DNA of 63,162 nucleotides, filler included, from Stramenopiles sp. TOSAG23-6 (Eukaryota), in NCBI GenBank assembly GCA_900128565.1. It is 40 parts of 40 records of this genome, joined end to end, with 100 filler letters (N's around TTAATTAATTAA, not from the genome) between each part and the next. Parts side by side here need not be neighbours in the genome. Positions count along the whole stretch, not along the records: positions 15,882 to 17,367 come from LT638984.1; 39 more parts are not named here. One strand, 5' to 3'. The number at the start of each line of letters is the position of its first letter. The stretch's first letter is position 1. The notes below the pieces were generated by a model. That model was not told the origin of the DNA, did not search any database, and saw nothing but the letters and a program-made list of their open reading frames with translations. A program made the position numbers and the translations under genes. Shown here piece after piece: positions 15,782 through 61,480 of the stretch.

Positions 15782-15888
15782 NNNNNNNNNNNNNNNNNNN
15801 NNNNNNNNNNNNNNNNNNNNNNNNNTTAATTAATTAANNNNNNNNNNNNNNNNNNNNNNNNNNNNNNNNNNNNNNNNNNNNTGTTCTG

Positions 15889-16006
15889 AACTGGGAGATT
15901 CGCAATCATTCGAACAATTCTTTCGCCTTTTACTAAAGAATTCCGTGGTTACGAATTGCTAATCCCACTGATCCCAATGTTTGGATATACAAACTCTCAC
16001 GAGTTA
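15889..16006 (+). ncRNA. U5: U5 snRNA
   Basis: TTCTTT-CGCCTTTTACT-AAAGAA invariant loop 1, CCG internal loop, TGGGA/TCCCA basal stem, Sm-like AATGTTTGG, 3' hairpin. Confidence 0.95.
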
Positions 16007-16009
16007 CTG

Positions 16010-16213
16010 ATACCTTCTCGGCCTTTTGGCTAAGATCAAGTGTAGTATCTGTTCTTATTAGAGTGAAATCTAATATTCAGGTCATAGACCTGTAATTTTT
16101 CACACTAATTTTTCTAGGATCGATATGGGCGAGCAGTCGTTTACGATAGCCCCCTAATCAAGCTTGTCTTTTGCATTGCACTATCGCTCTGTGACGAGCG
16201 CCCGAAAGGGCAT
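16010..16213 (+). ncRNA. U2: U2 snRNA
   Basis: ATACCTTCTCGGCCTTTTGGCTAAGATCAAGTGTAGTATCTGTTCTT canonical 5' domain, AATTTTT Sm-like sites, ATTGCAC loop IV. Confidence 0.98.
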
Positions 16214-16229
16214 CTGTTTTTCCTTCTCA

Positions 16230-16388
16230 AAACGTACATGGAGTGATTTGGAGGTGGTCAATATGGCCTCTAAATCCGAGTGAAGCAAGACCTGATCACT
16301 TTGGTTGTTTGTAAAGCTCGGTGCTGCTCTTCGGAGTATGCGGATTCTCAATTTTTTGTAGGGCTCTGCAGCGCGTGCGCTCTTAGCC
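16230..16388 (+). ncRNA. U1: Variant U1 snRNA with altered 5'-splice-site recognition arm (AAACGUACAUGG)
   Basis: Helix H GGAGT/ATTCT; SL1 GATTTGGAGG/CCTCTAAATC with loop GGTCAATATG; SL2 loop TGATCACTT; SL3 with TTCG loop; Sm site AATTTTTTG (16350-16358); GC-rich SL4; located between U2 and U4. Confidence 0.85.
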
Positions 16389-16394
16389 ATCTGT

Positions 16395-16529
16395 ATCTTT
16401 GCGCTTGGGGCATTACCTTTACCATTGACGTTCGCTGAGGTTGGGTTATTGCTAGTTGAAAACTACATTCCAAGTTCATGGTTCTTCCTAGTGTTGAACC
16501 TAATTTCTCAAACGTCTCTCACGAGATAC
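16395..16529 (+). ncRNA. U4: U4 snRNA
   Basis: ATCTTTGCGCTTGGGGCA (U6 stem II arm), TTGCTAGTTGAAAAC (stem I arm), AATTTCT Sm-like site, 3' hairpin. Confidence 0.92.
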
Positions 16530-16531
16530 TG

Positions 16532-16660
16532 ATGCCAATTACCTTCGGGTATTGTGCTAAGATTGTTTTTCTTAATTTCTAAGGAAAATGCAAGATGCTA
16601 CTGGAGTAGTTTTTAATGCAGTTCGATTCTGCGTCGTCTTTTGAAGTTATTTTTTACATT
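16532..16660 (+). ncRNA. Unidentified structured RNA, fifth unit of the snRNA cluster
   Basis: Follows the same TCTCACGAG.TACTG|A junction as U5-to-U2; CTTCGG hairpin, U2-like GCTAAGAT, U12-like CTTAA...TAAGGAAAAT, two further hairpins, U tract. Confidence 0.5.
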
Positions 16661-16865
16661 TATTTGTTGTTTTATTAAATTTTTTTAATGTTTGAATCAA
16701 TGCATTCGCTTGAGATGCGAATTCATAATTTACTATTGTAACAATTCCTCGTGAAATTGCATGATTTTTTGCACTTCTCTGTAGAAAAAAAAGTGAGACT
16801 GGTAATATTACAAACATTTTTATTATATTTTATAAAGTCTCATTTTTGTTTCTTTCTCAACAGAC

Positions 16866-17367
16866 TTATTCCATAAATCCATAATCGAGTTCAACTGTTT
16901 TGCTGCGACCGGTTGAGTCATTCTTTGCGCGAAATTTCAGTTCAGTTGCACCAAAGATTGCATCAACAGAAAAATTCTCAATGCCATTACAGGAAATCTT
17001 CATCGTGCCAATTTTGCGGCAACAAGGAGATGTCACCCAAAATGGCGGCCTACCTATTTGCGACGTTGATACGTAGAGGTCAAAGTGAACTGAACGTTGA
17101 GAAAAAGTCGTAGAATAACCACCTTTCGTAATTGCTTCATTGACTTTCACCTCCTGGCCCCGCTTAACCAACACGGAAAAATAATTCCTTATTCTCCGGA
17201 TTCCTTGTTCGTCGAGATAAGACTTACCAAGTGCATCTTGGCGTTGATGCTCAGGGTTAGATGAATTAAATACTGTTGCTATAGATACGCCATAGTGAAA
17301 TCGTGCCTTGCGTGAGACAAACATTGCTTTTGAATCTGCAAACATGCATGCCCCTGTGACTACTGCA
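16866..17367 (-). CDS. HSPA12-like atypical Hsp70, C-terminus
   Basis: AVVTGACMF...VSRKARFHYG...FSVLVKRGQEV...FGATELKFRA. Confidence 0.85.
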
Positions 17368-19234: not shown

Positions 19235-19877
19235 ATATTTCTTTTGAATGACTGGAACACCACGCGATTGCAGAAATGTATTTTGAAAAAATATTTCAAA
19301 ATTTTTTTTTGAAAATTTGTTAGGTACAAAATTTCGTATGAAAAAAAAAATTCCGAAAAAAAAAGAAAAAAAACATACATGTTTCACGTCCTGCATTTTT
19401 TCTTTTTTTTGAAATGTTTTTTATTATACAATTTGTAGTTTTTTCATTGGCTCGAACCATGACTTTTTTTTGATGTTTTTGATGTTTTTGATGTTTTTGA
19501 TATTTTTGATGTTTTTGATATTTTTGATGTTTTACATTTTCAACTAGATTGTTTGGAGTCATTAGGGTTAGGGTTTCCTTTCTAGGATCTTTTTTTGTTG
19601 TTGTTATTTGTAATAAATTAGAAATTTGATTATATAACGTTTGTTTTTTAGATAATTCTTTTTGTTTTTTTTTCTACTCTTTTATTTCGTGTTTCATCAA
19701 GATATTTTTGAGCTTTGCGTTGAGCCTCCTGTAATGCTAATATATATATAAATATATAAATATTTTGTTAGTAAAAAAAATTTAAAAAAAAAAAAAAAAA
19801 AAAATTTAAAAAAAAAAAAATTTAAAAAAAAAAAAAAAAATTAAAAAAAAAAAAAAAAATAAAAAAAAAAAAAAAAA

Positions 19878-21521: not shown

Positions 21522-22123
21522 ATGATAATGGTAATATGGTATATTCTATTAGCACATTGTTTTGTCATGGTAATTTCGAACAAGATACAAAAAGTCCAGC
21601 AGCAACAGTCACTTAGTTCATATTTCACTTTTGAAGAAGCTCCGGAGAATACTGAAAAAACTCCCCTGTTTGATCCTATTTCGTTGCCACAATGGCCAAC
21701 AAGAACTTTCACATCGAGCGATAATAGCGATGTTTCTTATCCATCACATTTGCAATCATCTTCATTTTTGGAGACATCTGCAAACGATTTAGGGTTAGGG
21801 TTAGGCTCGTCTGGTTTTAAACACTGGGACGGAACTTTTCTCAACGAAAATCCACTCTCTCAAGTATCTGAATTTTTGGACAACCAAGATCGTAAATACG
21901 AAGTGCTAGTAAAGAGACATAATGACTCTACAATTGAATCTACAGGGGAAAGATTTATGTCACTTTTGGAAATTGGACAATCAACAAGTATAAAAATGAA
22001 AAAAGTACACGTACGTATTTCATGATGAATTTTAAATTTATTTTTTTTTCGTACGAAATTTCGTACCTAACAATTTTTTTTCTACAATATTTTTTTACAA
22101 TACACGCTTTTTGTGAGATTTGT
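21522..22123 (+). CDS. Secreted protein, possibly with a saposin-like domain (intron 22011-22105)
   Basis: Signal peptide; spliced junction KVH|AFCEIC. Confidence 0.55.
22011..22105 (+). other. Introner-family intron, GT...AC, AC duplicated
   Basis: CAC|GTACGT...CAATAC-AC|GCT; contains the perfect palindrome GTACGAAATTTCGTAC. Confidence 0.8.
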
Positions 22124-22269
22124 NNNNNNNNNNNNNNNNNNNNNNNNNNNNNNNNNNNNNNNNNNNNTTAATTAATTAANNNNNNNNNNNNNNNNNNNNN
22201 NNNNNNNNNNNNNNNNNNNNNNNTGTACGTAANAAAAAAAACAAAAAAAACATATTTTTCACAATACAT

Positions 22270-23707
22270 TTCAAAGCATCTGAATTAAAAGAATTATTTT
22301 CAGTCGAAAGTTTGAATCTTAAAAGCTCTCACTCACAGTCTGAATTATTGAAGCTTCATGGAATTGAACTTTTGATGTCTGGAGAACATTCTAATCACAT
22401 TAAGACGTTAGTAAATATGCCTGGTGTTTTTGGTCTCACTGATCATACAGCTGTGTTTACTAAAGGTATTGCTTCACCTGTTTCGTCGCACACCCAGAGC
22501 TGCGACGTCACTGCGGAAGGTACTAAAAGAGAAAATTCTGCAAATATTAATTGTGTTGAACGTGCAAAGGAGGAAGCAAAAGCTGCAAGATGTAGACTAA
22601 ACACTAATTATGTTGAGCGTCGAACCGCAAAGAAGAATAGGAATATAAATGATGCGAAAGAGAATTTGAATACAGAAAATATAAAACTTGGTACAAATAG
22701 AGATGGTTTAGATGTCGATGATGTAAAACTAGAATTGAAATATTCTTTGTCGAAACTAAATAAAAACAATTTGAGAGAAGATAATTCCGATGTTGTCAAT
22801 GAAGATGTAATTGATATTGATTGTCATGAGAAAAAAGATAAAGTTGAAAATATTTTGGAATCTATTGATATTACCCGTAATTTAACTGATGCGTTTAATG
22901 AAATGGATATATGTAATAATAATGACGATATTCCGTATAATACATCTGAATTTGTTATTCTAGATAATAATGTAATGTCTCAAGATAGTGATCATGATAT
23001 TGATAATAATATAATGTCTCAAGATAGTGGTAATGATAGTGATAAAACCGAATGTACAGTCGTTATATCAGATTGTATAGACGATAATAGCGTTGAATAT
23101 ATTAAAGAAATATCTGTGAAAGTTGATGACGATTGTGAAAATGATGAAAATGATCTTCAAAATGATTCTGATGACACAGTATGTACTATAGTTATGTCGG
23201 ATTCCCCAGATGCAAATAGTAACAACACTGAATTTGTACCAAATTATGTACCTAAATCTTATAAAAATAATTCCTTTAATGAACGAAAAATTTCAGAAGC
23301 CAGTAAAAGAGCAGATAGTGATGAAGAAGAATTGTATGAAGCCAGTAAAAGAGATGAAGAAGAATTGTATGAAGCCAGTAAAAGAGCAAATAATGATGAA
23401 GAAGAATTGTATGAAGCCAGTAAAAGAGCAGATAGTGATGAAGAAGAATTGTATGATAGCTTCTTATCTTGTAATAGTAAAATAGATTCACATATAGAGA
23501 GTGATGCTGAAAACAATACAATGAATGAAAAAGATCTTTCTTACACTGGGATTTGTGAGTCACCTATAGTAAGTACTACAAAACAATCTATCCCGACGAA
23601 ACCTACAGGCCAGTTACAGTTAATTCATTCACTTCAAGAATCACCTATCATAAGAACAACGAAAAAACAAATTATGCTATCACCATTAAATACTCCAATA
23701 AATTCAT
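22270..23707 (+). CDS. ERCC6L/PICH-like SNF2 helicase, post-helicase region and acidic tail
   Basis: FKASELKELF (compare RYFSKQELRELF) and HIKTLVNMPGVFGLTDHTAVFTK; EEELYEASKR repeats. Confidence 0.6.
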
Positions 23708-23807: not shown

Positions 23808-25291
23808 TGTACGTAACAAAAAAAACAAAAAAAACATATTTTTCACAATACATTTCAAAGCATCTGAATTAAAAGAATTATTTTCAGTCGAAAGTTTGAA
23901 TCTTAAAAGCTCTCACTCACAGTCTGAATTATTGAAGCTTCATGGAATTGAACTTTTGATGTCTGGAGAACATTCTAATCACATTAAGACGTTAGTAAAT
24001 ATGCCTGGTGTTTTTGGTCTCACTGATCATACAGCTGTGTTTACTAAAGGTATTGCTTCACCTGTTTCGTCGCACACCCAGAGCTGCGACGTCACTGCGG
24101 AAGGTACTAAAAGAGAAAATTCTGCAAATATTAATTGTGTTGAACGTGCAAAGGAGGAAGCAAAAGCTGCAAGATGTAGACTAAACACTAATTATGTTGA
24201 GCGTCGAACCGCAAAGAAGAATAGGAATATAAATGATGCGAAAGAGAATTTGAATACAGAAAATATAAAACTTGGTACAAATAGAGATGGTTTAGATGTC
24301 GATGATGTAAAACTAGAATTGAAATATTCTTTGTCGAAACTAAATAAAAACAATTTGAGAGAAGATAATTCCGATGTTGTCAATGAAGATGTAATTGATA
24401 TTGATTGTCATGAGAAAAAAGATAAAGTTGAAAATATTTTGGAATCTATTGATATTACCCGTAATTTAACTGATGCGTTTAATGAAATGGATATATGTAA
24501 TAATAATGACGATATTCCGTATAATACATCTGAATTTGTTATTCTAGATAATAATGTAATGTCTCAAGATAGTGATCATGATATTGATAATAATATAATG
24601 TCTCAAGATAGTGGTAATGATAGTGATAAAACCGAATGTACAGTCGTTATATCAGATTGTATAGACGATAATAGCGTTGAATATATTAAAGAAATATCTG
24701 TGAAAGTTGATGACGATTGTGAAAATGATGAAAATGATCTTCAAAATGATTCTGATGACACAGTATGTACTATAGTTATGTCGGATTCCCCAGATGCAAA
24801 TAGTAACAACACTGAATTTGTACCAAATTATGTACCTAAATCTTATAAAAATAATTCCTTTAATGAACGAAAAATTTCAGAAGCCAGTAAAAGAGCAGAT
24901 AGTGATGAAGAAGAATTGTATGAAGCCAGTAAAAGAGATGAAGAAGAATTGTATGAAGCCAGTAAAAGAGCAAATAATGATGAAGAAGAATTGTATGAAG
25001 CCAGTAAAAGAGCAGATAGTGATGAAGAAGAATTGTATGATAGCTTCTTATCTTGTAATAGTAAAATAGATTCACATATAGAGAGTGATGCTGAAAACAA
25101 TACAATGAATGAAAAAGATCTTTCTTACACTGGGATTTGTGAGTCACCTATAGTAAGTACTACAAAACAATCTATCCCGACGAAACCTACAGGCCAGTTA
25201 CAGTTAATTCATTCACTTCAAGAATCACCTATCATAAGAACAACGAAAAAACAAATTATGCTATCACCATTAAATACTCCAATAAATTCAT
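23808..25291 (+). repeat. Duplicate scaffold of 22224-23707
   Basis: Identical except that one N is resolved; identical ORF set. Confidence 0.97.
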
Positions 25292-27087: not shown

Positions 27088-27148
27088 CAATTTCAAATAT
27101 TTCAAAATATTTCAAATTTTCAAAAAAAATAAAAGATATAAAAGATAC

Positions 27149-31864: not shown

Positions 31865-33082
31865 ATGGTTTGTACAAAAGATACACTTTTTTGTATTTTT
31901 CGTATCATCTGATGGATTTCGTGTATTAGACGAGTCTTTATTTAAAGATGTAAACCCTAACCCTAAATCCATTTCAGAATTATAAAAAATACTTTTAATT
32001 TTTTTGACTAAAAAATGAGTCATTATATAAACATTACCGGGTACCTCACATAGTGCTTGCCATAATGAAAGCATACATTTTGGAATTTGAATAATATGTT
32101 GTTGTTGTTGCATGTGATGTACAAAAATATTCTAGAATTGAAATTTTTGTAAGCAAGAAAAAAATTTTTGAAAAAAAAATTTTTGAAAAAATTTGAAAAA
32201 AAAAATTTTTGAAAAAAAAANAAAAAAAAAATTTTGAAAAAAAAAAAAAATCCACAAACAACAAACATACATTCCATTTTTTTGAAATCTGGATTCTAAT
32301 TTTTCATAAAAATTATTTCCATTAAAAATGACGTCAGAAGAATCATTAAAAATTGAGCAACTATTAAATTTCTTCTTATTTGTATTTCGCATCATTTCAG
32401 TTAATATAATTAATTCATTAAGAAATCCTGTTTGAACGTTTTCAATATTTTGATATTGCCTAGGGTTAGGGTTATTAGGGTTAGGGTTACAATTTGAAAA
32501 AAGAACAATTTTTTTTGCCCATGGTATCGAAGCATTTATGATGCATAATTGTGAGCTCAATGATTGGTGAATCACTTGGCGTGTCATTTCTAGTAAATAA
32601 CGACAAGCATATGATGAAATAGTATATTTCGTGTTTTTTTGTACAGTCAGTGGTGTTGTGACACGTGGCATACTCACTTTCACAACTGATTTTTTTTGAT
32701 TTTTTTGATTTCGTGTATGTTGAACATTTAAATGTTGATTTAAATGTTGATTAGGGTTAGGGTTAGGGTTTGGACATACTGTTGACAATGACTCAACTAA
32801 TGAAGAACATAACAATTCAGACACTTTGTATTGAAATTGTAGAATAGCTTCAGAATTATTTGGAATATTTCGACACGAAATACCAACATTATGTATTGTG
32901 AATTTTTTTTGTTGATGTTTCATTCGTTAGAAAAAATGTTTTTCGTGTTTCGTTTTTCGTGTTTCGTTTAGGTACAAAATTTTGTATGAAAGATAAATTG
33001 GTAAATTGGTAATATGTACATACATGAGCTATAGACTTCCAAATTTGATGTTCAGTCATGGACACATGGGACGGTACACCAC
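31865..33082 (-). CDS. Multi-exon hypothetical protein
   Basis: SIAH|NVGISC across intron 32891-33023; the phase across 32117-32270 is unresolved. Confidence 0.5.
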
Positions 33083-34975: not shown

Positions 34976-36343
34976 CACTATATCATTTTAATGAGCAACT
35001 GACAAAGGCATCATCGGAAAATGTGAACAAGTTAGACATCACTCAAAAACAACTACAACAAGTGATGCATGAAAAAAACGCGATACACCAAATGCACGAT
35101 GAAGCTAAAGTATTACTAAAGAGTCAATCAAAATTAATCACACAATTAAAATTTGATAAAAATTTACAAAATTCAAACTTGAAGTTGAAGAATTCAAGAA
35201 TTCAAGAGTTGCAACATATCATTACTACTTCAGGTACCACTACCAACAACATTGAAGAACATACGATGGAGAAAACAATAATAAAACTAACAAACAAAAA
35301 TAAAGAACTATCATCAAAGCTAGTAGCTGCAGAAGAGTATATATCAAATATACAGGATGAAAAAAAACTATTGAAGTCACAATGTAGTAGTTGCATTGAT
35401 GTTCATCGAAATAACAATGATTTGCAAAAAAGAATTCAAATTCGAGAATCAGAAATAAATTTACTCAAAGATGTAAAAATTGCAAATCTTAATCAAAAAG
35501 TTACAATGCAACAAGAAAAAGGTATTAATCAAATGGAAATTAAATCATTGAAGAATAAATTGAAAGTAGTGGGAAATCAATTGAAGTCAAAGGTGGATGA
35601 ATTTGAAAATCTCTCTCACAAACTCAATTCTACACGAAATACTCTACATAAAACGGAGGACGAAAGAAATAGATTATCATTGCAATGTGATGAACTAAGA
35701 AACACAATTTCAAAATTAAAAAAATCTGAACAAATCNTAAAAGAATTAAAAGCTGATTATACGGCATTACAAATAAAGCATACAAAAGTAGTAAAACAAT
35801 ATCAATCAGAATGTAAAGATGTACGTTTTCAAAATTGAATTTCGATTTTTTTTTGTACCAAATTTTGTACCTAACAAATTTTTACTAAAAATAATATATT
35901 TCCAAAATACATGTTGAATCATTGTATAGTGAAAAGATTAGTCAAGTGATTAAAAAAAATGATAGCATGAGTAGTCATCTTAGAAATGATATCAATATGG
36001 TACAACTTGCTCTTGGAGATACACAAAAACGTCTTTTACACACAAATCAAGAAAAACAAAAAATATCCCTTGAGTTGACGAATGAAAAAAAACTTCGCGA
36101 GAAATTACATTTGATCAATAAACAACAAATGGATCAAATATCTAGAAAGTTTTGGTATCAAGAATCGAGTGAAGCTGAACTTTTAAAACAGATTGAATCA
36201 TATAAAATATCTGAAGAAAAATATCAAAATGAAATTGTAGCACAGAAAAACACAAATGAGCTACTTGAAGAACGGAAAAATCGATTTAACGAAAATGAAT
36301 GTCGAATCATAGATTTCCTTGAAAATGAATCGAGTCTTGAATA
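34976..36343 (+). CDS. Long coiled-coil protein, internal exons (intron 35821-35912)
   Basis: ECKD|VESLYSEK; the apparent TAG at 36342-36344 is TA|GTACGT, the next donor. Confidence 0.75.
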
Positions 36344-37889: not shown

Positions 37890-38819
37890 ATGCATTATGA
37901 AAAATATTTCAAAATTTAAAATCGTTAGGTACAAAATTTCGTACNNNNNNNNNNNNNNNNNNNNNNNNNNNNNNNNNNNNNNNNNNNNTTAATTAATTAA
38001 NNNNNNNNNNNNNNNNNNNNNNNNNNNNNNNNNNNNNNNNNNNNCAAAAAAGTGATGCGCCAGCAAGTATAATAGACGCAGGGGAAAAAACGTTCAATTC
38101 CATAAAGCTCGCTTTACAAAAAGATGAAATACGTTAGTTTGTTTTGATACTATCGTTGAAAAATGATTAAATAAGAATAATAAAACGAATTCTATAGAAA
38201 GTGAATCTTTGCACATTCGAGTTCGAAAGTCTCTAATCACTTCATGTGCAATTAACGAATTTTGAATTTACTCAGTGCCATAGCCTTTCAAAGTGGAGGG
38301 TATAGAAACAAGAATTATACTCTAAAAAACACTAGGGTTATCTATATATTTCATCCTATCTACGGAGATACACCGCATGCGATAAAGGATACAAACAATA
38401 CGAAACCCTAACCCTAAAGAGAATGAACCAAATCGAACAATTTTTTTTACAACTCAACGACCGTGATGGATGCATTTCAAACAAATTCTCTCAGTAAAAG
38501 AGTTTCAATCAGGAACTTATCGAATACCCGGTTAGAGTATACGATAAATGAATCTTGATCTCAAACTTAAATAGGTTATTTCTTCAATGAGAATAGTTGG
38601 AAATTCGTGTTTACTTGAACAAGTTGAGCCATCATGTTGTATAATAACGATCAACTTGCATTACGAGTAAATTGTCATTCCACATACATCTGCGGTATCG
38701 CTGGATTTGTAATCAAAGTCATCCAGTATATAATGGCTATTTCACTTTGAAATACCTTGTTACTACATACGACGGAAAACAAAACTTCATGACTGATAGA
38801 ATATATTAGTTTAACTTAC

Positions 38820-39114
38820 ATTTCTGGTAGTATGCGACGATAGATTTAGCAATAGCTTGACGGATAGCATAGATCTGAGAAACATGACCTCCACCTTTTA
38901 CACGGACACGGATATCAACCTTACCGAAGTAATCAGCTCCGAGCAATAAGACTGGTTCAACAGCCTTCTGGCGAAGTGGAGCTGGTTCGAGAAGCTCGAT
39001 TGGCTTTCCGTTGACACGGACTACACCGCGTCCTGCCTTGCAGTAGGATACTGCGACAGCAGACTTCTTGCGTCCGAATACTTGTACAGACTGAATTTTT
39101 TTAATGCCGTCCAT
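38820..39114 (-). CDS. RPS16: 40S ribosomal protein S16 (uS9), first exon
   Basis: [14 protein letters not shown]...[30 protein letters not shown], followed by a GTAAGT donor at 38819. Confidence 0.97.
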
Positions 39115-41206: not shown

Positions 41207-42642
41207 TTCGCATCGCTCTAACCTATTAGATTATGCTTTACTGCATTTAACAGTTTCACAAATATATAGAGCAGAAAATATTGAGAGCCAAAATGATGCT
41301 TTCATTAGTGAAAATATACAAAATGATGCCTTCATTAGTGAAAATATGAACATTTTAAGCCTTTCAATATCAAAAATGTCATTTGCTTCCTTTCAAATAG
41401 CAATGTTACTACACACACTCAACAGAGATCTTCCTGTGCGTTTAAATAATATAAAATGTTCATCGAAGTTGCTCTCAGGTATAAAAGGTAAAAGCACACC
41501 TTGTAGTAAATACTATGCATTTTTTGCTCTCAGTTTGCAAGTAGATTATGGTCGATTAACGTATGAAGAGATATCACTGGTTTCTAATCAATGGAATTCA
41601 GATTCAAAATGTATTGTAGAATTGAGTGGCATTACTCCAAAATACAATGGAATCATTGATCATGAGAAAAGTGAAACCAAAATGGATAATTTCACCTTTG
41701 CCTCTTTATCTCTCAGAAGTATTAGTCAATATAATTTAGCAGTTGCGTGGGCAAAAAACTTAAAGTCAAAATACGGTCATGGTTTTAACCCAAATATAGG
41801 CGGTAAATGGTGGTCCGCACCCCTGACATTAGTGACTAAAAGCATTGACAGCCTTCGAAAAGTAATCCATCACCACGTATGTTTTATTTTTTTTTCAAAT
41901 TCGATTTTTTTTCGTAAGAAATTTCGTACCTAACGATTCTCTCCTGTTCTTTATAGAATTAGAGAAAATATGGCACAATTGCTGAAACTGGCAGGTGTAT
42001 TACAAATAAGATTACATGCTGCATCTGGAAACATTCATGAAGTACAAAATACCCAACTGAGAGATGTTTTAGAATTCTACAATAGCAAAGAAGAGTTTGC
42101 AAAAAAGTATAAACTTGACTTTGAAAGTTTGTCTGTTGATTCGTATAAGAAAATGGATATTACAGCACGAGCTCTTGAAACATTATCCGGTATCTTTAAT
42201 GAATTTGGTATTAATGAGAGTAAGAAAAAAGAAACAAACCAAAAATGCAATGTAGAATCGTCTTTATATACTGAAGAAAAAGGCATGTGTGACTTAAGCA
42301 TAGGCGTGAATGTAGTAGATGATCAAAATAGTAATGATCAAATGCGACTATCTGAGGCAATACATAAATTTTTGAAGAGTTCAAATGTATCCAATAATGC
42401 GTCAATTATAGATCAAGTGGTACCGGAAGCTCTAATGAAGCATCCCTTTATGTTTGATTGGAATGCAACTCTTTTAGCCGGCGAACCGCTAACCAAGGTG
42501 GCTAGCAATATTGCGTATGAAGCATGTAAAGCAGCAAATTTGTCTGTCGACTCTGCAAGGTTTTCATCTGATTGTGTATCTGATTTAACTCGTAGATGGC
42601 TGACTATTTTACCCCACTCAATCACTGAGCAAGCTAAGCCTA
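41207..42642 (+). CDS. Hypothetical helical protein, internal exons (intron 41877-41954)
   Basis: Two long ORFs in the same frame separated by a family intron containing a stop. Confidence 0.65.
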
Positions 42643-44265: not shown

Positions 44266-44794
44266 NNNNNNNNNNNNNNNNNNNNNNNNNNNNNNNNNNN
44301 NNNNNNNNNTTAATTAATTAANNNNNNNNNNNNNNNNNNNNNNNNNNNNNNNNNNNNNNNNNNNNAGACAAAGTGTATCGAATGTTTTAGGAGATATTGA
44401 TTTTGATTTTTATCACACTAGTTTTGATTCTGTTTGTACGTTTTTAGTAACCCTAACCCTAAGAACTTTCAAAAAAAAAAATTTAATACAAAATTTCATA
44501 CCTAACAAAATAGTAATCAAAATTTTTTTAAATATGTACCAAAATATATTTATAATCAGTGCAATTGTGAGTAGTATAATTTTATTTATATCACATAAAT
44601 CAAAAATGTCAAGAATTAATCCTGCTTATAATCAAGTTGGAACTTTTGCCAATATTGGAGATGAAGCTCAAATGTTCAATCCATTTGGTTCATTTTCTAC
44701 CACTACAACTAGACCAAAAGGTACAAAAAAATGGTAGAAAAAAAAAAAAACAGATATCAATTTCAAACCCTAACCCTAATAAAAATGATAAAGA

Positions 44795-45944: not shown

Positions 45945-47422
45945 CGTGAGGAAAATCTTGCATGGTGTCTCTCGACAGAATTTCCTGCTGCTCGAGCTAA
46001 GTTTGTCGCTTCATTGCGTGAAATCATGCCAGGTTTATTGCATAATATTGCTGATCTTGTACGTTGTCTCATTTAATTTCAATTTTTTTTTGGTTTCATA
46101 CGAAATTTTGTACCTAACATGTTTACTTTTTTGAAATATTTGTTCACAATACTTCGATCTCAAATTGTGAAAGAAGTAACGTCTTCTTTATCAGCTTTTT
46201 CTCTTGTATTAGGGAAAGATTTGGATCCTCTTGCAAGCAAACTAATTGAAAGTTTATTGAAATTAACGTATATTACAATTCAATGTATTCGAGATTCGGG
46301 GTCAGATTGTCTGCGTAACATTATTCTATGTACGTCGACTGGCTTTCCTCGCGCAGTGATTAAAATTTTAGACGGCGCCAATTCAAAAAATGAAAAGTTG
46401 AGATGTCATGCAATGGCATGCCTTGCATTGGCTCTACGTCAATGGAATCCTTCCAGCTTTTCCAAAACAATTACTGAAGTGACTGCATCTATTAAAGCTG
46501 GCATAAGTGGATCTAGTCCTGATGTCAGGAGTACTGCAAGACAAGCACTTTTATGTCTAGAAATATCTTTCCCTGAAGAAGCACACCGTGTTGAAGCAGG
46601 TTTAAATCAAAGAAATATTCGTCAAATGCAACGTGATCGTTCAGAATTTTCTCCATCTCGTTTTGATACACTAGGACCAACACTTGGATCTACAGTAACA
46701 GATTCATCTTGTGCGGTTCAAAAATCATCTAAATATGGAAATTCTAAGCATCGGAGTAATGATAAAGCAACGACTACTATTCCCACAAGGAATCATCCTA
46801 AAACGAAATCAGTTTTTTCTCATAGTTACAGTGAATCTACTGGCACCAGCAATACTAGTGGTCCAGTAAGAGTTCACCAGCGTGATGAAAGAAGAGCTCC
46901 TTTTCACAATGCATCTGATTCTCATAGAGGAGGAAATTTATCTAAAGCTAAATGTCATTCTAATGAACATATGTCTACACAAGCATTACGGGTTGTAGCT
47001 CCAGCCCAACGTCATAGTGGACATCCATATCAAGGCGNNNNNNNNNNNNNNNNNNNNNNNNNNNCATCGTACACAACATTCAAGGATACATAGCCATACG
47101 AAACACAACCAAGATGAAAGTAGTACAAGTCTTGGCGGTGCTCGGAGAGTTACAACGAATACGTCTTCTATATCTCAATCATCACACGGTGCAAACATTT
47201 CTACGGATGTTCAACGTGATGAACAAGGAGCTCGTAGAATAGCTTCGACGACTTCAGAATCACATGTCACATCTGGTGTGCGCAAGCAAACAGTTAATAC
47301 AATGTCTGACATGGAACTCACAGATTCAGAAACTGCAAAACAACTTACATTGTCACAACTACTTCGTTTATCAGCTGATGATCAATGGCATAGCCGAGCT
47401 GCTATATGCACTGGATTTTCAA
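45945..47422 (+). CDS. CLASP N-terminal TOG-domain protein (intron 46059-46154)
   Basis: IADL|RSQIVKE conserved DLRS motif; PDVRSTAR. Confidence 0.85.
46059..46154 (+). other. Introner-family intron, GT...TT, TT duplicated
   Basis: GAT CTT|GTACGT...CACAATAC-TT|CGA TCT restores DLRS. Confidence 0.88.
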
Positions 47423-52250: not shown

Positions 52251-52325
52251 CTCTGCATAGCCCAATAATGTCCATCCACCACCATCTGTCACCTTGTCAC
52301 AGTACACTTGAATACCTGCATAAAG
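52251..52325 (-). CDS. Fibrinogen-C-like exon (absent from the ORF track)
   Basis: IQVYCDKVTDGGGWTLL after a canonical ...AAACAG acceptor. Confidence 0.7.
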
Positions 52326-52472
52326 CTGTTTGGATCAGTTGTTGGTATAAAGAGTTGATTATATTTTGTCATTTTTGTCATTAATTTTTTTTCATAGTAA
52401 ATTTTGTACCTAACAAAAAAAATTATAAAAAAAAAAACATTTTTTAAAAATTAATTCTCTAGTTTATTGTAA

Positions 52473-53157
52473 TTATAGTTGGACAATTCCATATTGTACT
52501 AAGAGTCCAATTATAGCAAAGAATAATACAATGATATCTCTCTGACTAATACCAATTGTTTTTTGATGACAAGAAGAAAGTTCTACAACTTTTGTTTTGT
52601 CTAATAAATCATTATTTGAAATAGAATTGGTTTTTTAATAAATAGTCTTTTCTATCTACTTGTGGACGTTGTAGAGAATGTTTTGTGTACATATTATTAT
52701 TTTTAAATAAAAGAGATATGTCTTTGTTATATGTAGAATTTGTACCACCATTAGTACCATTAGTAGTACCACCATTAGTACCATTAGTAGTACCATTAGT
52801 AGTACCATGTTTCACTATTTTCTCTTTTTTATTCTTCATGTCAACACTTTTTGTTGTAAATGAAGTAACAACTGCAGCAGATGCCAAACAAAATAATATC
52901 GCAAATGGTAATGGAGCATGTTTTGTTGCTGCGGCAGCAAATGGAGTAATCCATGAACAATCCATCCCTTCATAGACGGCCCATTGCTCGGTGTTATTAT
53001 ATGGATTCATAATAGGTTTACATGAACAGAGTCCATCTAAGCATTCACCATTAGGATAACTACAATTATTTAAACATCCTTTTTTTGAACAATCAAGTGT
53101 ATACCATTTCGCATCACAATCACACCGACTTGCGGGGTATTCCCAAACACATGTTCC
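52473..53157 (-). CDS. EGF-repeat membrane protein, last exon
   Basis: GTCVW...CDC...DCS...CLNNCSYPNGECLDGLCSC then a TM helix; probable extra A near 52635 (ORF track stop is at 52612). Confidence 0.8.
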
Positions 53158-53267
53158 ATGTATTGTGAAAAAAAAAAAAAACAAAAAAAAATTTTTAGGT
53201 AACAAATTCCATCCAAAAAAAAAAATTTCTAAAAAAAAAAAAAAAGTTTTTCATACTGCAAACATAC

Positions 53268-53638
53268 ACCAATTGATTTTCACTTTCAAACCAACGCAAT
53301 GCTTCTTGTGTAATACGCCGAATATTATACTCTACATTAGATATAACCTCTTTTTGTTTCATAGTATCAAAATTAATAGAAAATTTTGTACCATTTTCTT
53401 CAAATTCGATAGAATTTGTTTTGTTATTTTCATCATTTTTTCGTGTTTCTAAATAACGACACGTGGCATCTTGAAATGATATAAAACGACCTTTTGAATT
53501 TTCCCATTGCCAAATAAAACGTTTATTTGACTTTTCAGATATATCCAATATATCAGAATTATTTTCATGATGAAACGTCGAAGGAAATGTTTCAATATCA
53601 AAAACACGAAAACAAATCACACTTTGAGGTTTTGAAGA
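53268..53638 (-). CDS. WWE-domain exon
   Basis: FIWQWENSKGRFISF...LE...FSINFDTMKQ...IRR. Confidence 0.75.
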
Positions 53639-53825
53639 ATGTATTTTGGAAAAATATTTCAAAAAAAAAATAAAAAAAATTGTTAGGTACAAAATTTCGT
53701 ACGAAAAAAAAATTCGATTTTTTTGNNNNNNNNNNNNNNNNNNNNNNNNNNNNNNNNNNNNNNNNNNNNTTAATTAATTAANNNNNNNNNNNNNNNNNNN
53801 NNNNNNNNNNNNNNNNNNNNNNNNN

Positions 53826-55300
53826 CTCTGCATAGCCCAATAATGTCCATCCACCACCATCTGTCACCTTGTCACAGTACACTTGAATACCTGCATAAAG
53901 CTGTTTGGATCAGTTGTTGGTATAAAGAGTTGATTATATTTTGTCATTTTTGTCATTAATTTTTTTTCATAGTAAATTTTGTACCTAACAAAAAAAATTA
54001 TAAAAAAAAAAACATTTTTTAAAAATTAATTCTCTAGTTTATTGTAATTATAGTTGGACAATTCCATATTGTACTAAGAGTCCAATTATAGCAAAGAATA
54101 ATACAATGATATCTCTCTGACTAATACCAATTGTTTTTTGATGACAAGAAGAAAGTTCTACAACTTTTGTTTTGTCTAATAAATCATTATTTGAAATAGA
54201 ATTGGTTTTTTAATAAATAGTCTTTTCTATCTACTTGTGGACGTTGTAGAGAATGTTTTGTGTACATATTATTATTTTTAAATAAAAGAGATATGTCTTT
54301 GTTATATGTAGAATTTGTACCACCATTAGTACCATTAGTAGTACCACCATTAGTACCATTAGTAGTACCATTAGTAGTACCATGTTTCACTATTTTCTCT
54401 TTTTTATTCTTCATGTCAACACTTTTTGTTGTAAATGAAGTAACAACTGCAGCAGATGCCAAACAAAATAATATCGCAAATGGTAATGGAGCATGTTTTG
54501 TTGCTGCGGCAGCAAATGGAGTAATCCATGAACAATCCATCCCTTCATAGACGGCCCATTGCTCGGTGTTATTATATGGATTCATAATAGGTTTACATGA
54601 ACAGAGTCCATCTAAGCATTCACCATTAGGATAACTACAATTATTTAAACATCCTTTTTTTGAACAATCAAGTGTATACCATTTCGCATCACAATCACAC
54701 CGACTTGCGGGGTATTCCCAAACACATGTTCCATGTATTGTGAAAAAAAAAAAAAACAAAAAAAAATTTTTAGGTAACAAATTCCATCCAAAAAAAAAAA
54801 TTTCTAAAAAAAAAAAAAAAGTTTTTCATACTGCAAACATACACCAATTGATTTTCACTTTCAAACCAACGCAATGCTTCTTGTGTAATACGCCGAATAT
54901 TATACTCTACATTAGATATAACCTCTTTTTGTTTCATAGTATCAAAATTAATAGAAAATTTTGTACCATTTTCTTCAAATTCGATAGAATTTGTTTTGTT
55001 ATTTTCATCATTTTTTCGTGTTTCTAAATAACGACACGTGGCATCTTGAAATGATATAAAACGACCTTTTGAATTTTCCCATTGCCAAATAAAACGTTTA
55101 TTTGACTTTTCAGATATATCCAATATATCAGAATTATTTTCATGATGAAACGTCGAAGGAAATGTTTCAATATCAAAAACACGAAAACAAATCACACTTT
55201 GAGGTTTTGAAGAATGTATTTTGGAAAAATATTTCAAAAAAAAAATAAAAAAAATTGTTAGGTACAAAATTTCGTACGAAAAAAAAATTCGATTTTTTTG
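53826..55300 (+). repeat. Duplicate scaffold of 52251-53725
   Basis: Same sequence and ORF set. Confidence 0.97.
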
Positions 55301-60214: not shown

Positions 60215-61480
60215 AAGGCTATAGCGGCGACTTTAAAACGTCTCAAAGACATAGAAGAGAAAATTGCTGATGTTCCATTTATGCAGATCAAGAATGTAAA
60301 GAGTGAGGCTGAAAAAAAAATGGAACGTTCGGCAATGGCAGATTTTTTTACAGGGGAAAAAATTCGAATACAGAGGCAAATGAAAGAGGAAAAATTACAC
60401 CGTACAAAACTGAAACACGAAAAGGACCGTCTGAAAATTGTTTTAAAATTAGCAAATACTGATGAAGAAACAAAATTGAGTAGTTGGCACCTTATACCTC
60501 CAGACTTAAAAACTGCAAATGTTGTATTGAACAAGGATGATTGGCAAGACTTCAGGGTGTATATAGATTTAGATAAAAAGTTGCCGGGGGTCCGCCCAAA
60601 AGGCAATGTAACTGTACGTTTTCATTTCAATTTTCGAATTTATTATTTTTGTTTCATACGAAATGTTGTACCTAACGATTTTTTTTTAGAAATATTTTTT
60701 CACAATACATGTCATCAAAGGTTTACCACCAAAGGAGTATCCAACAGAAGCAGAAATGAATATGCGCGGAGTGTTAATCGTTCGACGAAAAACTGGTGAT
60801 GATGGTTGGTTTCAATTCAATGATAAGATGGATACATTATTTCATGGTTCTTGGATGGATGTATGTTTTATTTTTTTTTTACTATGAATTTTTTTTTTCG
60901 TACTAAATTTTGTACCTAACAATTTTTTTTTGAAATATTTTTCCAAAATACATGGTATTCGACAAGGGAATGGAACAGAAGTTACGAAATATTCACATTT
61001 CGTCGGACCATTTTCAAGAGGTATTTCGAGTGGCCGTGGTGTTTTAGCTTGTAAAGATGGTGTTAAATTTGAAGGTAAATTAGGTATAAAAGTAAAACAT
61101 ATTGACAGTGAAGGGGGATTATTAGTACCAATTTTATATGAAAATGAATACCATAATGGAGTTTTTCAAAGTAAAGGAAAAATTACATTTGCCGATGGAG
61201 CAATCTATGAAGGCCAATTTCTAGATGGCAGGATAACAGGAGAAGGTAAATATACATTACCTAATGATGAAGGTTATTATGAAGGACAATTTGAGAATGG
61301 TCTTCTTCAAGGAGAAGGTGTAAAAGTAGATAAAACAGGTATGATGTGGGAAGGTACATGGAATAAAGGCTTGTTAGATGGTTATGGAACTCAGACTTCT
61401 CTTGATGGACACTGCTTATATACAGGTACTTGGTCTAATGGCTTATGGCATGGAAAAGGGAAATTACACACACGTAGTAT
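60215..61480 (+). CDS. MORN-repeat protein (introns 60614-60710, 60861-60953)
   Basis: FHGSWMD|GIRQGNGTE; YEGQFLDGRITGEGKY repeats. Confidence 0.9.

What the first reader, a model, noticed from the sequence alone, without database searches (positions are those of the whole stretch)
16230..16388. Re-programmed U1 snRNA whose 5' arm matches the donor site of the non-canonical intron family
Seen: between U2 and U4 lies an RNA with U1 architecture (helix H, SL1-3, Sm site AATTTTTTG, SL4) whose 5' end is AAACGUACAUGG. Known: U1 is almost invariantly AUACUUACCUGG and pairs with CAG|GUAAGUAU, with C8 opposite +1G. The three substitutions (U2A, U5G, C9A) make this arm complementary to CAU|GUACGUUU, and G5 can also wobble with GUAUGU. 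That is the AT|GTAYGTTT consensus of the ~60 introns in this window, including the unusual exonic -1 T. The U1-70K and U1A loop equivalents are also altered (GGUCAAUAUG, UGAUCAC). Inference: a specialised U1 snRNP co-evolved with an introner invasion, either alongside or in place of normal U1. The pairing also places the cleavage at AT|GT.
Basis: partly seen in the sequence, partly recalled or inferred. Interest (0 to 1): 0.97.

Follow-up and report, generated by a model that had tools for sequence, protein, structure and literature searches.

The report
U1 snRNA retuned to transposon-like introns
The small RNA that marks where introns begin carries three changed letters that make it fit the start of an abundant, repeat-like intron family ending in AT instead of AG, in an uncultured marine protist; this looks like splicing machinery and invading introns adapted to each other, but expression is untested.

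Summary
Window 16230-16389 (+) matches the whole Rfam U1 model: 54.1 bits, below the curated 69.5, E=1e-10 window-wide. It has helix H, four stem-loops and the Sm site AAUUUUUUG, and lies in a head-to-tail array U5-U2-U1-U4 plus a fifth U2-like RNA. Its 5' arm AAACGUACAUGG differs from the consensus AUACUUACCUGG at exactly three positions. Each change restores pairing to the donor AU|GUAYGUUU of a repeated intron family (43 internal cores against 0.05 expected; 26 exact donors against 0.8). Across 34 curated donors this arm pairs 10.1 of 11 positions, against 7.4 for the consensus arm. An acetyl-CoA synthetase gene fixes one intron as 188-279, GT...AT, so the AT|GT cleavage is supported and an AT-AC reading rejected. 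The introns have a CUAAC branch-like core, a U tract, weak terminal inverted repeats and 2-nt flank duplications, as transposon-derived introns do. The organism is probably a marine stramenopile (MAST-3-like). Not shown: expression, whether a canonical U1 coexists, and which side adapted to which. Read laying failed and no genome is held. Verdict: real, probably functional; a new variant of U1/donor co-evolution.

The parts
16230..16389 (+). U1 snRNA gene (candidate), full length
   Evidence: RF00003 model 1-166/166, 54.1 bits (gathering score 69.5), E 1.7e-12 local, 1e-10 window-wide
16230..16241 (+). U1 5' arm AAACGUACAUGG, complementary to (C)CAU|GUACGUUU. The A at 16229 would extend pairing to +9 U.
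   Evidence: pairing statistics; donor logo
16256..16265 (+). SL1 loop GGUCAAUAUG (position of the U1-70K-binding loop; consensus GAUCAaGAAG)
   Evidence: alignment
16293..16299 (+). SL2 loop UGAUCAC (position of the U1A-binding loop; consensus AUUGCAC)
   Evidence: alignment
16350..16358 (+). Sm site AAUUUUUUG
15890..16007 (+). U5 snRNA gene, 2 nt upstream of U2
   Evidence: RF00020, 76.8 bits
16010..16206 (+). U2 snRNA gene with canonical GUAGUA branch-binding sequence; 23 nt before U1
   Evidence: RF00004, 138.8 bits
16395..16526 (+). U4 snRNA gene, 5 nt after U1
   Evidence: RF00015, 76.0 bits
16532..16640 (+). Unassigned fifth RNA ('X'). It has a U2-like 5' end (AUGCC, stem-loop, GCUAAGAU) but lacks GUAGUA. 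It contains UAAGGAAAAU, a weak Sm-like site and a terminal hairpin.
   Evidence: no Rfam match at E<=10 except two noise hits; junction repeat and alignment to U2
188..279 (+). Family intron in the acetyl-CoA synthetase gene, GTATGT...ATACAT. Its boundaries are fixed by homology.
60614..60710 (+). Family intron; 5' flank CT, 3' end AT
60861..60953 (+). Family intron in a MORN-repeat gene (AT|GTATGT...ATACAT|G)
22011..22105 (+). Family intron with flank AC and 3' end AC (duplicated flank)
46059..46154 (+). Family intron with flank TT and 3' end TT (duplicated flank)
19276..19378 (-). Family intron
35821..35912 (+). Family intron
38815..38820 (-). Donor of a non-family intron in RPS16, read on the minus strand as AAAU|GUAAGUUA. 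The exon ends at 38820 and GUAAGU starts at 38819.

Best explanation
This is a genuine U1 snRNA gene, or a faithful copy of one, from an uncultured marine protist that is probably a MAST-3-like stramenopile.

Its single-stranded 5' arm has changed at three positions. It now forms a 10-11 bp helix in the canonical register (C8 opposite intron G+1) with the sequence AU|GUAYGUUU(U). G5 pairs with C or wobbles with U at +4, A2 pairs with +7 U, and A9 pairs with exon -1 U. That sequence is the 5' end, plus the duplicated AT target site, of an abundant MITE-like intron family.

Besides the donor, the family carries a conserved UACCUAAC branch-type core followed by a U tract. Its 3' end is AAUAC plus 2 nt, usually AU, instead of AG.

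Inferred mechanism:
1. U1 snRNP binds these donors strongly.
2. The canonical U2 binds CUAAC.
3. The major spliceosome removes the element together with one copy of the 2-nt flank, restoring the reading frame.

Shown: RNA family and architecture, complementarity, family structure, and one intron's boundaries. Inferred: expression, snRNP assembly, actual use in splicing, and the history (U1 adapting to the introns and/or the introns being selected to fit U1).
For: U1 identity. The match covers the full U1 model at E=1e-10, next to intact U5, U2 and U4.

Pattern of substitutions. The Rfam consensus arm and the family donor disagree at exactly three positions: -1, +4 and +7. The arm is changed at exactly these three, each to the complementary base. 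Given three substitutions in 11 nt, I estimate about 1 in 4,455 by chance (my arithmetic: 1/C(11,3) x 1/27).

Pairing across 34 curated donors:
- This arm pairs 9.15 Watson-Crick plus 0.97 G-U of 11 positions; the consensus arm pairs 7.03 plus 0.41.
- 33 donors pair better with this arm, 1 the same, 0 worse.
- Mean duplex energy is -10.0 kcal/mol against -1.8.
- 3,000 random GT sites give 5.6 against 5.4 pairs.

Positions not used to pick the donors are also enriched. Family-like sites, n=44: -2 A 28, -1 T 35, +7 T 35, +8 T 37. Other GTRYGY sites, n=102: 33, 46, 38, 36.

The family is real: 27 donor decamers against 0.81 expected and 43 cores against 0.05. In 14 aligned copies the 5' end, core and 3' end are conserved while the middle varies.

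Against: - The score is below Rfam's gathering threshold (54.1 against 69.5).
- Both protein-binding loops differ from consensus.
- There is no expression, cap or Sm evidence.
- There are no relatives for covariation: the U1 pattern has 0 hits in metagenome contigs.
- The gene sits 5-23 nt from its neighbours, with no room for its own snRNA promoter or 3' box. The array could therefore be a processed polycistron or a non-functional chimeric retrocopy.
- Only 63 kb of the genome was seen, so a canonical U1 may exist elsewhere.
- Linkage of this scaffold to the intron-bearing scaffolds rests on the shared assembly and on the complementarity itself. Codon usage is only compatible: r=0.54, against 0.27-0.86 for other genes.
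- The donor set was curated by me. I dropped 8 rows of the 44, plus rows with N.
Confidence: 0.65

Rival explanations
1. Reversed causality. The lineage's U1 arm and general donor consensus had already drifted to xAU|GUAYGUUU. The transposon-like element then spread because its end happened to fit, or evolved to fit, that U1. On this view U1 is the ordinary sole U1, not a specialised one.
For: The only non-family intron I could define, in RPS16 (AAAU|GUAAGUUA), also has -2 A, -1 U and +7 U. It pairs 8 of 11 with this arm and 7 of 11 with the consensus arm (my count). No second U1 was found in the window. GUAYGU is otherwise a normal, yeast-like donor.
Against: Only one non-family intron was examined. 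The -2/-1 AU of family introns behaves as a duplicated insertion site (AC/AC and TT/TT cases), so part of the complementarity is to the target site rather than to the element. There are no relatives with which to order the events.
Confidence: 0.3
2. The array U5-U2-U1-U4-X is a non-functional chimeric retrocopy. Reverse transcriptase would have switched templates from one mature snRNA to the next, or the array is otherwise a dead copy. The U1 here would then be a pseudogene whose arm may or may not equal that of the working U1.
For: Full-length snRNAs lie head to tail with 2-23 nt spacers, each starting at model position 1. There is no room for separate promoters.
Against: The functional motifs of U2, U4 and U5 are intact, with high scores. 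The three U1 changes are all compensatory, which decay does not predict. No poly(A) tract follows X. A 21-nt junction repeat, CTCTCACGAG[T/A]TACTGAT[A/G]CC, precedes both U2 and X. That looks more like a duplicated gene unit or processing signal.
Confidence: 0.15
3. The family is excised by a structure-driven, non-spliceosomal route, as proposed for euglenid and diplonemid nonconventional introns. The U1 match would then be incidental to the element's inverted repeats.
For: The ends are weakly inverted repeats (GUAUGUUUU / AAAAUAC). The 3' end is not AG. The element's 3' end resembles the U1 arm.
Against: The consensus fold of 14 copies is weak (-0.94 kcal/mol, 6 pairs, 0 compensatory) and does not bring the two ends together. 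The introns have GU, a CUAAC core and a U tract like ordinary U2-type introns. RPS16 is far from kinetoplastid sequences: 86 bits against 138 for vertebrates.
Confidence: 0.05
4. The snRNA scaffold comes from a different organism than the intron-bearing scaffolds (contaminant of the assembly), or the 11-mer is a minus-strand donor of an mRNA.
For: The scaffolds are short and come from a fragmented assembly. The snRNA scaffold holds no family element.
Against: The three-for-three compensatory fit is itself hard to get between unrelated genomes. GC content (0.396) and codon usage are compatible. Minus-strand sequence after GTACGTTTT is the complement of the U2 flank, not a family intron. The plus strand matches the whole U1 model.
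Confidence: 0.04

Closest known systems
Co-evolved U1 snRNA 5' arms in Entamoeba (AACAAAC) and Mastigamoeba (Roy & Bowser, bioRxiv 10.1101/2022.06.08.495308; abstract and outline read)
   Same: The U1 recognition sequence is changed so that it pairs fully with an atypical, lineage-wide donor consensus. It was found by a relaxed U1 search, and the evidence is complementarity.
   Different: Here the matched donor belongs to a repeated, transposon-like intron family with non-AG 3' ends. The complementarity also covers the duplicated target dinucleotide. The lineage is different (probable stramenopile), and the gene lies in a tight snRNA array.
Non-canonical introns of Fritillaria larvaceans (Soo et al., NAR 2026, PMC13326754; sections 4, 21, 25, 29, 30 read)
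   Same: 3' AT is the commonest intron end (44% in F. pellucida, 34% in F. borealis). A YAY triplet precedes the 5' splice site and ends the intron, as with (Y)AU| and CAU| here. U-rich tracts are kept, and introner transposons are discussed as the source.
   Different: In F. borealis the U1 5' end is strictly conserved. The authors state that divergent U1 was 'not the alternative employed', and adaptation there is by U2AF paralogues and m6A. Here the 5' end stays GU and the U1 arm is what changed. The organism here is not a tunicate: pyruvate kinase is 40-48% identical to vertebrate PKM, and RPS16's nearest named hits are stramenopile.
Introner elements of Amoebophrya (Farhat et al., BMC Biol 2021, PMC7789003; passages read) and introners of Aureococcus/Micromonas as cited there
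   Same: Repeated intronic elements with terminal inverted repeats and short direct repeats overlapping the exon/intron borders. They spread like non-autonomous DNA transposons, and their termini are non-canonical.
   Different: In Amoebophrya no U1 snRNA was found and the splice motifs are highly variable. Here the donor is uniform and a matching U1 is present.
Transformed minor spliceosome of Physarum (Larue, Elias & Roy, bioRxiv 10.1101/2020.10.12.336362; part 1 of 4 read)
   Same: Massive gain of one intron class, with splicing signals said to have co-evolved with the snRNAs.
   Different: Those are U12-type introns ([AG]TATC[CT]TT, TTTGA branch motif). The family here has GUAYGU donors and pairs with a U1-type RNA.
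Euglenid and diplonemid nonconventional or intermediate introns (PMC6221363 and PMC12621601; passages read)
   Same: Non-AG ends, a suspected MITE origin, and a search for alternative U1s that might match them.
   Different: Those introns lack U1 complementarity and rely on end-to-end pairing. Here U1 complementarity is extensive and end pairing is weak.

Membership tests
U1 spliceosomal RNA (Rfam RF00003) | Covariance-model match at or above the curated gathering score | tested here: not met
   54.1 bits against 69.5. The match is nevertheless full length (1-166/166), with E=1e-10 window-wide.
U1 spliceosomal RNA (Rfam RF00003) | Four-way junction: helix H, SL1-SL3, then Sm site, then SL4 | tested here: met
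   By my reading of the alignment, helix H has 4 of 4 pairs and SL1 has 11 of 11, with a few non-standard pairs in SL2 and SL4. The Sm site AAUUUUUUG lies at 16350-16358. The free-energy fold recovers SL1 and SL2 but is not exceptional (z = -1.9).
U1 spliceosomal RNA (Rfam RF00003) | Single-stranded 5' arm complementary to the organism's 5' splice sites, with C8 opposite G+1 | tested here: met
   10.1 of 11 positions pair on average over 34 family donors. The register is supported by the acetyl-CoA synthetase intron boundaries.
U1 spliceosomal RNA (Rfam RF00003) | SL1 and SL2 loops with the U1-70K and U1A binding consensus | tested here: inconclusive
   GGUCAAUAUG against GAUCAaGAAG, and UGAUCAC against AUUGCAC. 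Both are partly conserved. The proteins were not available to test.
U1 spliceosomal RNA (Rfam RF00003) | Expressed, trimethylguanosine-capped, Sm-bound RNA | not testable with these tools
Introner / MITE-derived spliceosomal intron | Many similar copies inside unrelated genes, in the sense orientation | tested here: met
   43 cores against 0.05 expected. Copies lie in acetyl-CoA synthetase, MORN, RCC1-like and other ORFs. One further copy was found in a metagenome contig, L001.
Introner / MITE-derived spliceosomal intron | Terminal inverted repeats and target-site duplication | tested here: inconclusive
   The inverted repeat is short and imperfect (GTATGTTTT / AAAATAC). The 2-nt flank equals the 3' dinucleotide in 13 of the 16 complete copies I compared. 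Only 2 of these are informative (AC/AC, TT/TT), and 3 mismatch.
Introner / MITE-derived spliceosomal intron | Removal from mRNA restores the reading frame | tested here: met
   Shown for one copy by homology: acetyl-CoA synthetase residues 546|547 are contiguous. Frames are compatible in the MORN gene by my reading. No RNA evidence.
U12-type (minor) introns / U11-U12 | [AG]TATCCTT donor, TTCCTTRAC branch site, U11/U12/U4atac/U6atac snRNAs | tested here: not met
   The family donor is GTAYGTTT. Only 8 scattered [AG]TATCC[TC]T sites were found and not followed up. No minor snRNA was found by Rfam. RNA X has AUGCC and UAAGGAAAAU but no U12 match.
Euglenid-type nonconventional introns | No U1 complementarity; a stable structure joining both intron ends | tested here: not met
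   U1 complementarity is extensive. The consensus structure is -0.94 kcal/mol and joins the 5' end to an internal CRUAC, not to the 3' end.

The most novel reading that the evidence does not exclude
The organism runs a second, home-grown recognition system for transposon-derived GT/AT introns. A variant U1 (this gene), and perhaps the U2-like RNA X next to U4, would work beside canonical U1 and U2. That would be an independently evolved analogue of the minor spliceosome's U11/U12 pair, encoded in one co-transcribed snRNA array.
Probability: 0.1. Interest if true: 0.95.

Novelty: new variant of a known kind. Interest (0 to 1): 0.72.

Why it matters
How genomes survive invasions of intron-generating transposons is an open question, as is whether the core spliceosome can be retuned to them.

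In the best-studied case of non-canonical introns, Fritillaria, the U1 arm is unchanged, and the authors note that a divergent U1 was the obvious route not taken. In Amoebophrya no U1 could be found at all. In diplonemids no matching U1 was found.

Here a U1 arm fits a transposon-like GT/AT intron family base for base, including the duplicated target site. If it is expressed, it gives a directly testable system for snRNA/intron co-evolution. It also offers a simple explanation for how non-AG introns can still be defined efficiently, namely by very strong 5' recognition.

It also matters in practice. Gene models in this lineage read through such introns: the RPS16 models end in ..CKLN or ..CKSARS. 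Annotation of these uncultured marine protists may therefore be systematically poor.

Tried and rejected
Tools that gave nothing:
- No genome is held, so a genome-wide search for a second U1 was impossible.
- A U1 loop+Sm pattern had 0 hits in metagenome contigs.
- The intron-core pattern gave 1 metagenome contig (L001, one family intron), 0 viral contigs and 1 Bacteroidales MAG contig. I take the MAG hit (L002) as a chance 20-mer match and did not inspect it.

AT-AC reading of the family (|AUGUAYG...AUAC|). I rejected it for intron 188-279, because it would put D where 106 of 106 homologues have A. At mRNA level, slides of -1 to +3 nt remain indistinguishable for that intron. For AT-flanked copies the -2 slide cannot be excluded individually.

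Lineage ideas dropped:
- Physarum: different donor motif.
- Diplonemid: RPS16 is far from kinetoplastid sequences.
- Larvacean tunicate: one search shows pyruvate kinase only 40-48% identical to vertebrate PKM. In one search, RPS16's nearest named hit carries a MAST-3-type label, followed by stramenopiles and animals at 70-75%.

RNA X as U12, a spliced-leader RNA or any Rfam family: no match. Complementarity of X to the family core or 3' region, checked by eye, was not convincing.

A search for transcript-derived proteins spanning the acetyl-CoA synthetase junction found no near-identical hits (best 67%).

Literature searches:
- Motif strings found nothing relevant.
- 'introner' + 'U1 snRNA', 'MAST-3' + 'splice' and 'uncultured stramenopiles' + 'introns' + 'MAST-4' found no report of this U1 or of GT/AT introns in MAST lineages.
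- In the two MAST genome papers I ran term searches only and read the passages they returned. 'intron' occurs 0 times in one paper; in the other it occurs twice, and the one occurrence shown to me is in the methods.
- Supplements are closed and may hold more. Henriet et al. 2019 and Gawryluk et al. 2016 are not held (for the latter) and are cited only through other papers.

The protein-atlas look at the neighbouring ORF says eukaryotic and nothing finer.

Full report
**What the window is.**
The 63,162-nt window is not one locus. It is about 40 AT-rich scaffolds of roughly 1.48 kb (GC 0.19-0.41) joined by N...TTAATTAATTAA...N linkers (39 linkers; pieces). The finding lies in scaffold 15882-17367. 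That scaffold also carries the 3' part of a eukaryotic Hsp70-12-like ORF on the minus strand. No whole genome is held.

**The RNA.**
At Rfam gathering thresholds the scaffold holds U5 (15890-16007, 76.8 bits), U2 (16010-16206, 138.8 bits) and U4 (16395-16526, 76.0 bits), all on the + strand. With E-value thresholds the interval 16230-16389 matches RF00003 (U1) over the whole model (1-166 of 166). The score is 54.1 bits, below the curated 69.5. E is 1.7e-12 in the local search and 1e-10 against the whole window and all 4,227 families.

That scan found four matches in all with E<=1, so there is no second U1 in the window. The alignment shows helix H, SL1 (all 11 pairs standard or G-U by my reading), SL2, SL3, the Sm site AAUUUUUUG (16350-16358) and SL4. 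The unconstrained fold recovers SL1 and SL2 but is not exceptional (z = -1.9).

Formal Rfam membership by score is not met. Membership by architecture is.

**The arm and the donors.**
The 5' arm reads AAACGUACAUGG against the model consensus AUACUUACCUGG. The differences are U2A, U5G and C9A.

A repeated intron family fills the other scaffolds:
- Its internal core AWWTYRTACCTAA occurs 43 times against 0.05 expected.
- The donor decamer ATGTAYGTTT occurs 27 times against 0.81 expected. One of the 27 is U1's own complement.
- In 44 family-like GTRYGY sites, a set that still includes about 8 false members, the positions not used for selection are biased: -2 A 28, -1 T 35, +7 T 35, +8 T 37, +9 T 36.
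- In 102 other GTRYGY sites the counts at -2, -1, +7 and +8 are 33, 46, 38 and 36.
- Position +4 is C in 17 and T in 27.

The canonical arm and this donor disagree at exactly -1, +4 and +7. The arm has changed at exactly the three partner positions. A9 pairs with -1 U, and A2 with +7 U. G5 is the only base that pairs with both C and U. By my arithmetic, three random substitutions in 11 nt would do this about once in 4,455 times.

I then curated 34 donors by dropping 8 rows: the U1 locus, six obvious non-members or overlapping sites, and one reverse-oriented copy. Rows with N were also dropped. On this set:
- This arm pairs 10.1 of 11 positions on average; the consensus arm pairs 7.4.
- 33 donors pair better with this arm, 1 equally, none worse.
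- Mean duplex energy is -10.0 kcal/mol against -1.8.
- Random GT sites show no such preference (5.6 against 5.4 pairs).

**Where the introns are cut.**
The family consensus comes from 14 aligned copies, one of them from a metagenome contig. It reads (Y)AT|GTAYGTTTT..., T-rich stretch, CRTACGAAATTTTGTACCTAAC, T tract, GAAATATTTTTYCAMAATAC+AT|G.

Because AT usually flanks both sides, the intron could be read as GT...AT or as AT...AC. One copy decides between these readings. In the acetyl-CoA synthetase gene the 5' flank is CC.
- Exon 56-187 aligns to Salmonella Acs residues 504-546, ending ..AEAA.
- Exon 280-618 begins at residue 547, VVG.., with the same contiguity in several other solved synthetases.
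- Of 120 homologues, 106 have a residue at the position before VVG, and all 106 have A.

The AT-AC-type reading would give D there. So this intron is 188-279, GTATGT...ATACAT. Slides of -1 to +3 nt give the same mRNA or protein and cannot be excluded. Cutting in front of GU is the reading that fits U1's canonical register.

**Nature of the family.**
The ends are short imperfect inverted repeats (GTATGTTTT / AAAATAC). The 2 nt before GT equal the last 2 nt of the intron in 13 of the 16 complete copies I compared. These include the two informative cases AC/AC and TT/TT. Three copies mismatch. This suggests insertion with a 2-nt duplication, with splicing removing the element plus one copy.

Scaffolds often break inside the element, as expected of a high-copy repeat. 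Only the 5' end, the core and the 3' end are conserved among copies (mean column identity 54%). That is the pattern expected if splicing or transposition signals are under selection.

The core contains CUAAC followed by a U tract about 30-40 nt before the 3' end, an ordinary U2-type layout. The neighbouring U2 has a canonical GUAGUA.

A consensus fold is weak (-0.94 kcal/mol, 6 pairs, no compensatory change). It pairs the donor with the internal CRUAC rather than joining the intron ends. A euglenid-type structure-driven excision is therefore not favoured.

**Organism.**
My early guesses were wrong. Physarum's expanded introns are U12-type with other motifs. RPS16 is far from kinetoplastid sequences: 86 bits, against 138 for vertebrates and 113 for Euglena. 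Pyruvate kinase is only 40-48% identical to vertebrate PKM and about 50% to unnamed marine sequences, which argues against a tunicate.

The RPS16 search gives three informative results:
- The window's own protein.
- Two relatives at 94% identity.
- A source-named protein whose label points to marine stramenopile group 3. It is identical to the window's product apart from a gap.

The next named hits are oomycetes, Blastocystis, pelagophytes, raphidophytes and animals at 70-75%. I therefore call it a probable MAST-3-like marine stramenopile.

Term searches of the two MAST genome papers returned no passage describing unusual introns: 'intron' occurs 0 times in one and twice in the other, and the occurrence shown to me is in the methods. 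Supplements could not be seen.

**Same organism as the introns?**
The snRNA scaffold has no family element. Its ORF's codon usage correlates 0.54 with the pooled genes, within the 0.27-0.86 range of the others. This is compatible but not proof. The strongest link is the complementarity itself.

**What remains open.**
1. Expression. Both attempts to lay reads failed, so nothing is known about the RNA's presence, ends or cap.
2. Specialised or sole U1. Only 63 kb were seen. The single non-family intron I could define, in RPS16 (AAAU|GUAAGUUA), also has -1 U and +7 U. It pairs slightly better with this arm (8 of 11 against 7 by my count). This leans towards a general U1 whose arm and the lineage's donors have shifted together. 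In that case the element may have been selected to fit U1 rather than the reverse.
3. Gene or dead copy. The snRNAs sit 2, 23 and 5 nt apart, which leaves no room for individual promoters. A 21-nt repeat spans the U5-end/U2-start and U4-end/X-start junctions. AUCUGU follows the last stems of both U2 and U1. This looks like a processed polycistron or a duplicated unit, but a chimeric retrocopy is not excluded. The intact functional motifs of U2, U4 and U5 and the purely compensatory changes in U1 argue against decay.

**Comparison with what is known.**
- Co-evolution of the U1 arm with an atypical donor has been proposed for Entamoeba and Mastigamoeba (abstract).
- 3' AT ends with YAY triplets before both cleavage sites are the commonest class in Fritillaria. 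There, however, the U1 arm is strictly conserved, and the authors remark that a divergent U1 was not the route taken.
- Amoebophrya has introner elements with inverted and direct repeats, but no U1 was found.
- Diplonemid workers looked for, and did not find, U1s matching their non-canonical introns.

The present case combines these threads: a transposon-like GT/AT intron family and a U1 arm that fits it, target-site copy included. My searches found no report of it.

**Verdict.**
The feature is real and probably functional. I file it as a new variant of a known kind (U1/donor co-evolution). It is of high but not extreme interest, because everything beyond sequence complementarity is still inference.

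Noticed in passing
window 15890-16640 (+): Four spliceosomal snRNA genes plus a fifth RNA lie head to tail with spacers of 2, 23, 5 and 5 nt (U5-U2-U1-U4-X). A 21-nt repeat, CTCTCACGAG[T/A]TACTGAT[A/G]CC, spans the U5-end/U2-start and U4-end/X-start junctions. AUCUGU follows the last stems of U2 and U1. This could be a polycistronic snRNA unit or a chimeric retrocopy; I know of no described parallel. The scaffold starts only 8 nt before U5, so the array may extend upstream.
   Followed up: partly
window 16532-16640 (+): RNA 'X' has a U2-like 5' end (AUGCC, UUCG-capped stem, GCUAAGAU). In place of GUAGUA it has UUGUUUUUCUUAAUUUCUAAGGAAAAUG, which recalls the U12 branch-binding UAAGGAAAAU. It also has a weak Sm-like site and a terminal hairpin. 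There is no Rfam match. It is possibly a U2 paralogue with a different branch-site specificity.
   Followed up: partly
whole window, e.g. 32750-32775, 44450-44465, 38405-38420, 8840-8850: Telomere-type hexamers CCCTAA/TTAGGG occur 45 times, inside introns and in frame inside ORFs. In ORFs they translate to runs of NPNPNP in many unrelated proteins. This may be a second kind of inserted element or intron.
   Followed up: no
window 38815-39114 (-); proteins P0121, P0151, P0122: Public gene models of RPS16 in this organism and in a 94% relative read through the intron after ..YYQK (ending CKLN* or CKSARS...). One model also skips 17 residues. Gene prediction in this lineage seems to miss these introns.
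   Followed up: partly
window 27139-27148 (-): In an RCC1-like gene a possible donor reads GAU|GUAUCUUUUAUAUC, a U12-like GTATCTTT motif, unlike the family donor. It was not examined further.
   Followed up: no
window 22224-23707 vs 23808-25291; 52251-53725 vs 53826-55300: Pairs of neighbouring scaffolds encode identical ORFs. These are duplicate or allelic scaffolds in the assembly, so some family copies are counted twice.
   Followed up: no
alignment A1 columns 8-13 with 69-74: The family's internal CRUACG can pair with its own donor GUAYG and repeats nt 4-8 of the U1 arm (CGUAC). It might compete with or mimic U1 at the donor.
   Followed up: no
window 41877-41955 (+): A copy with the family 5' half and core lacks the AAUAC 3' end. 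The downstream frame would be restored by cutting after ..CUUUAU| (again AU), not after the nearby UAUAG (my reading).
   Followed up: no
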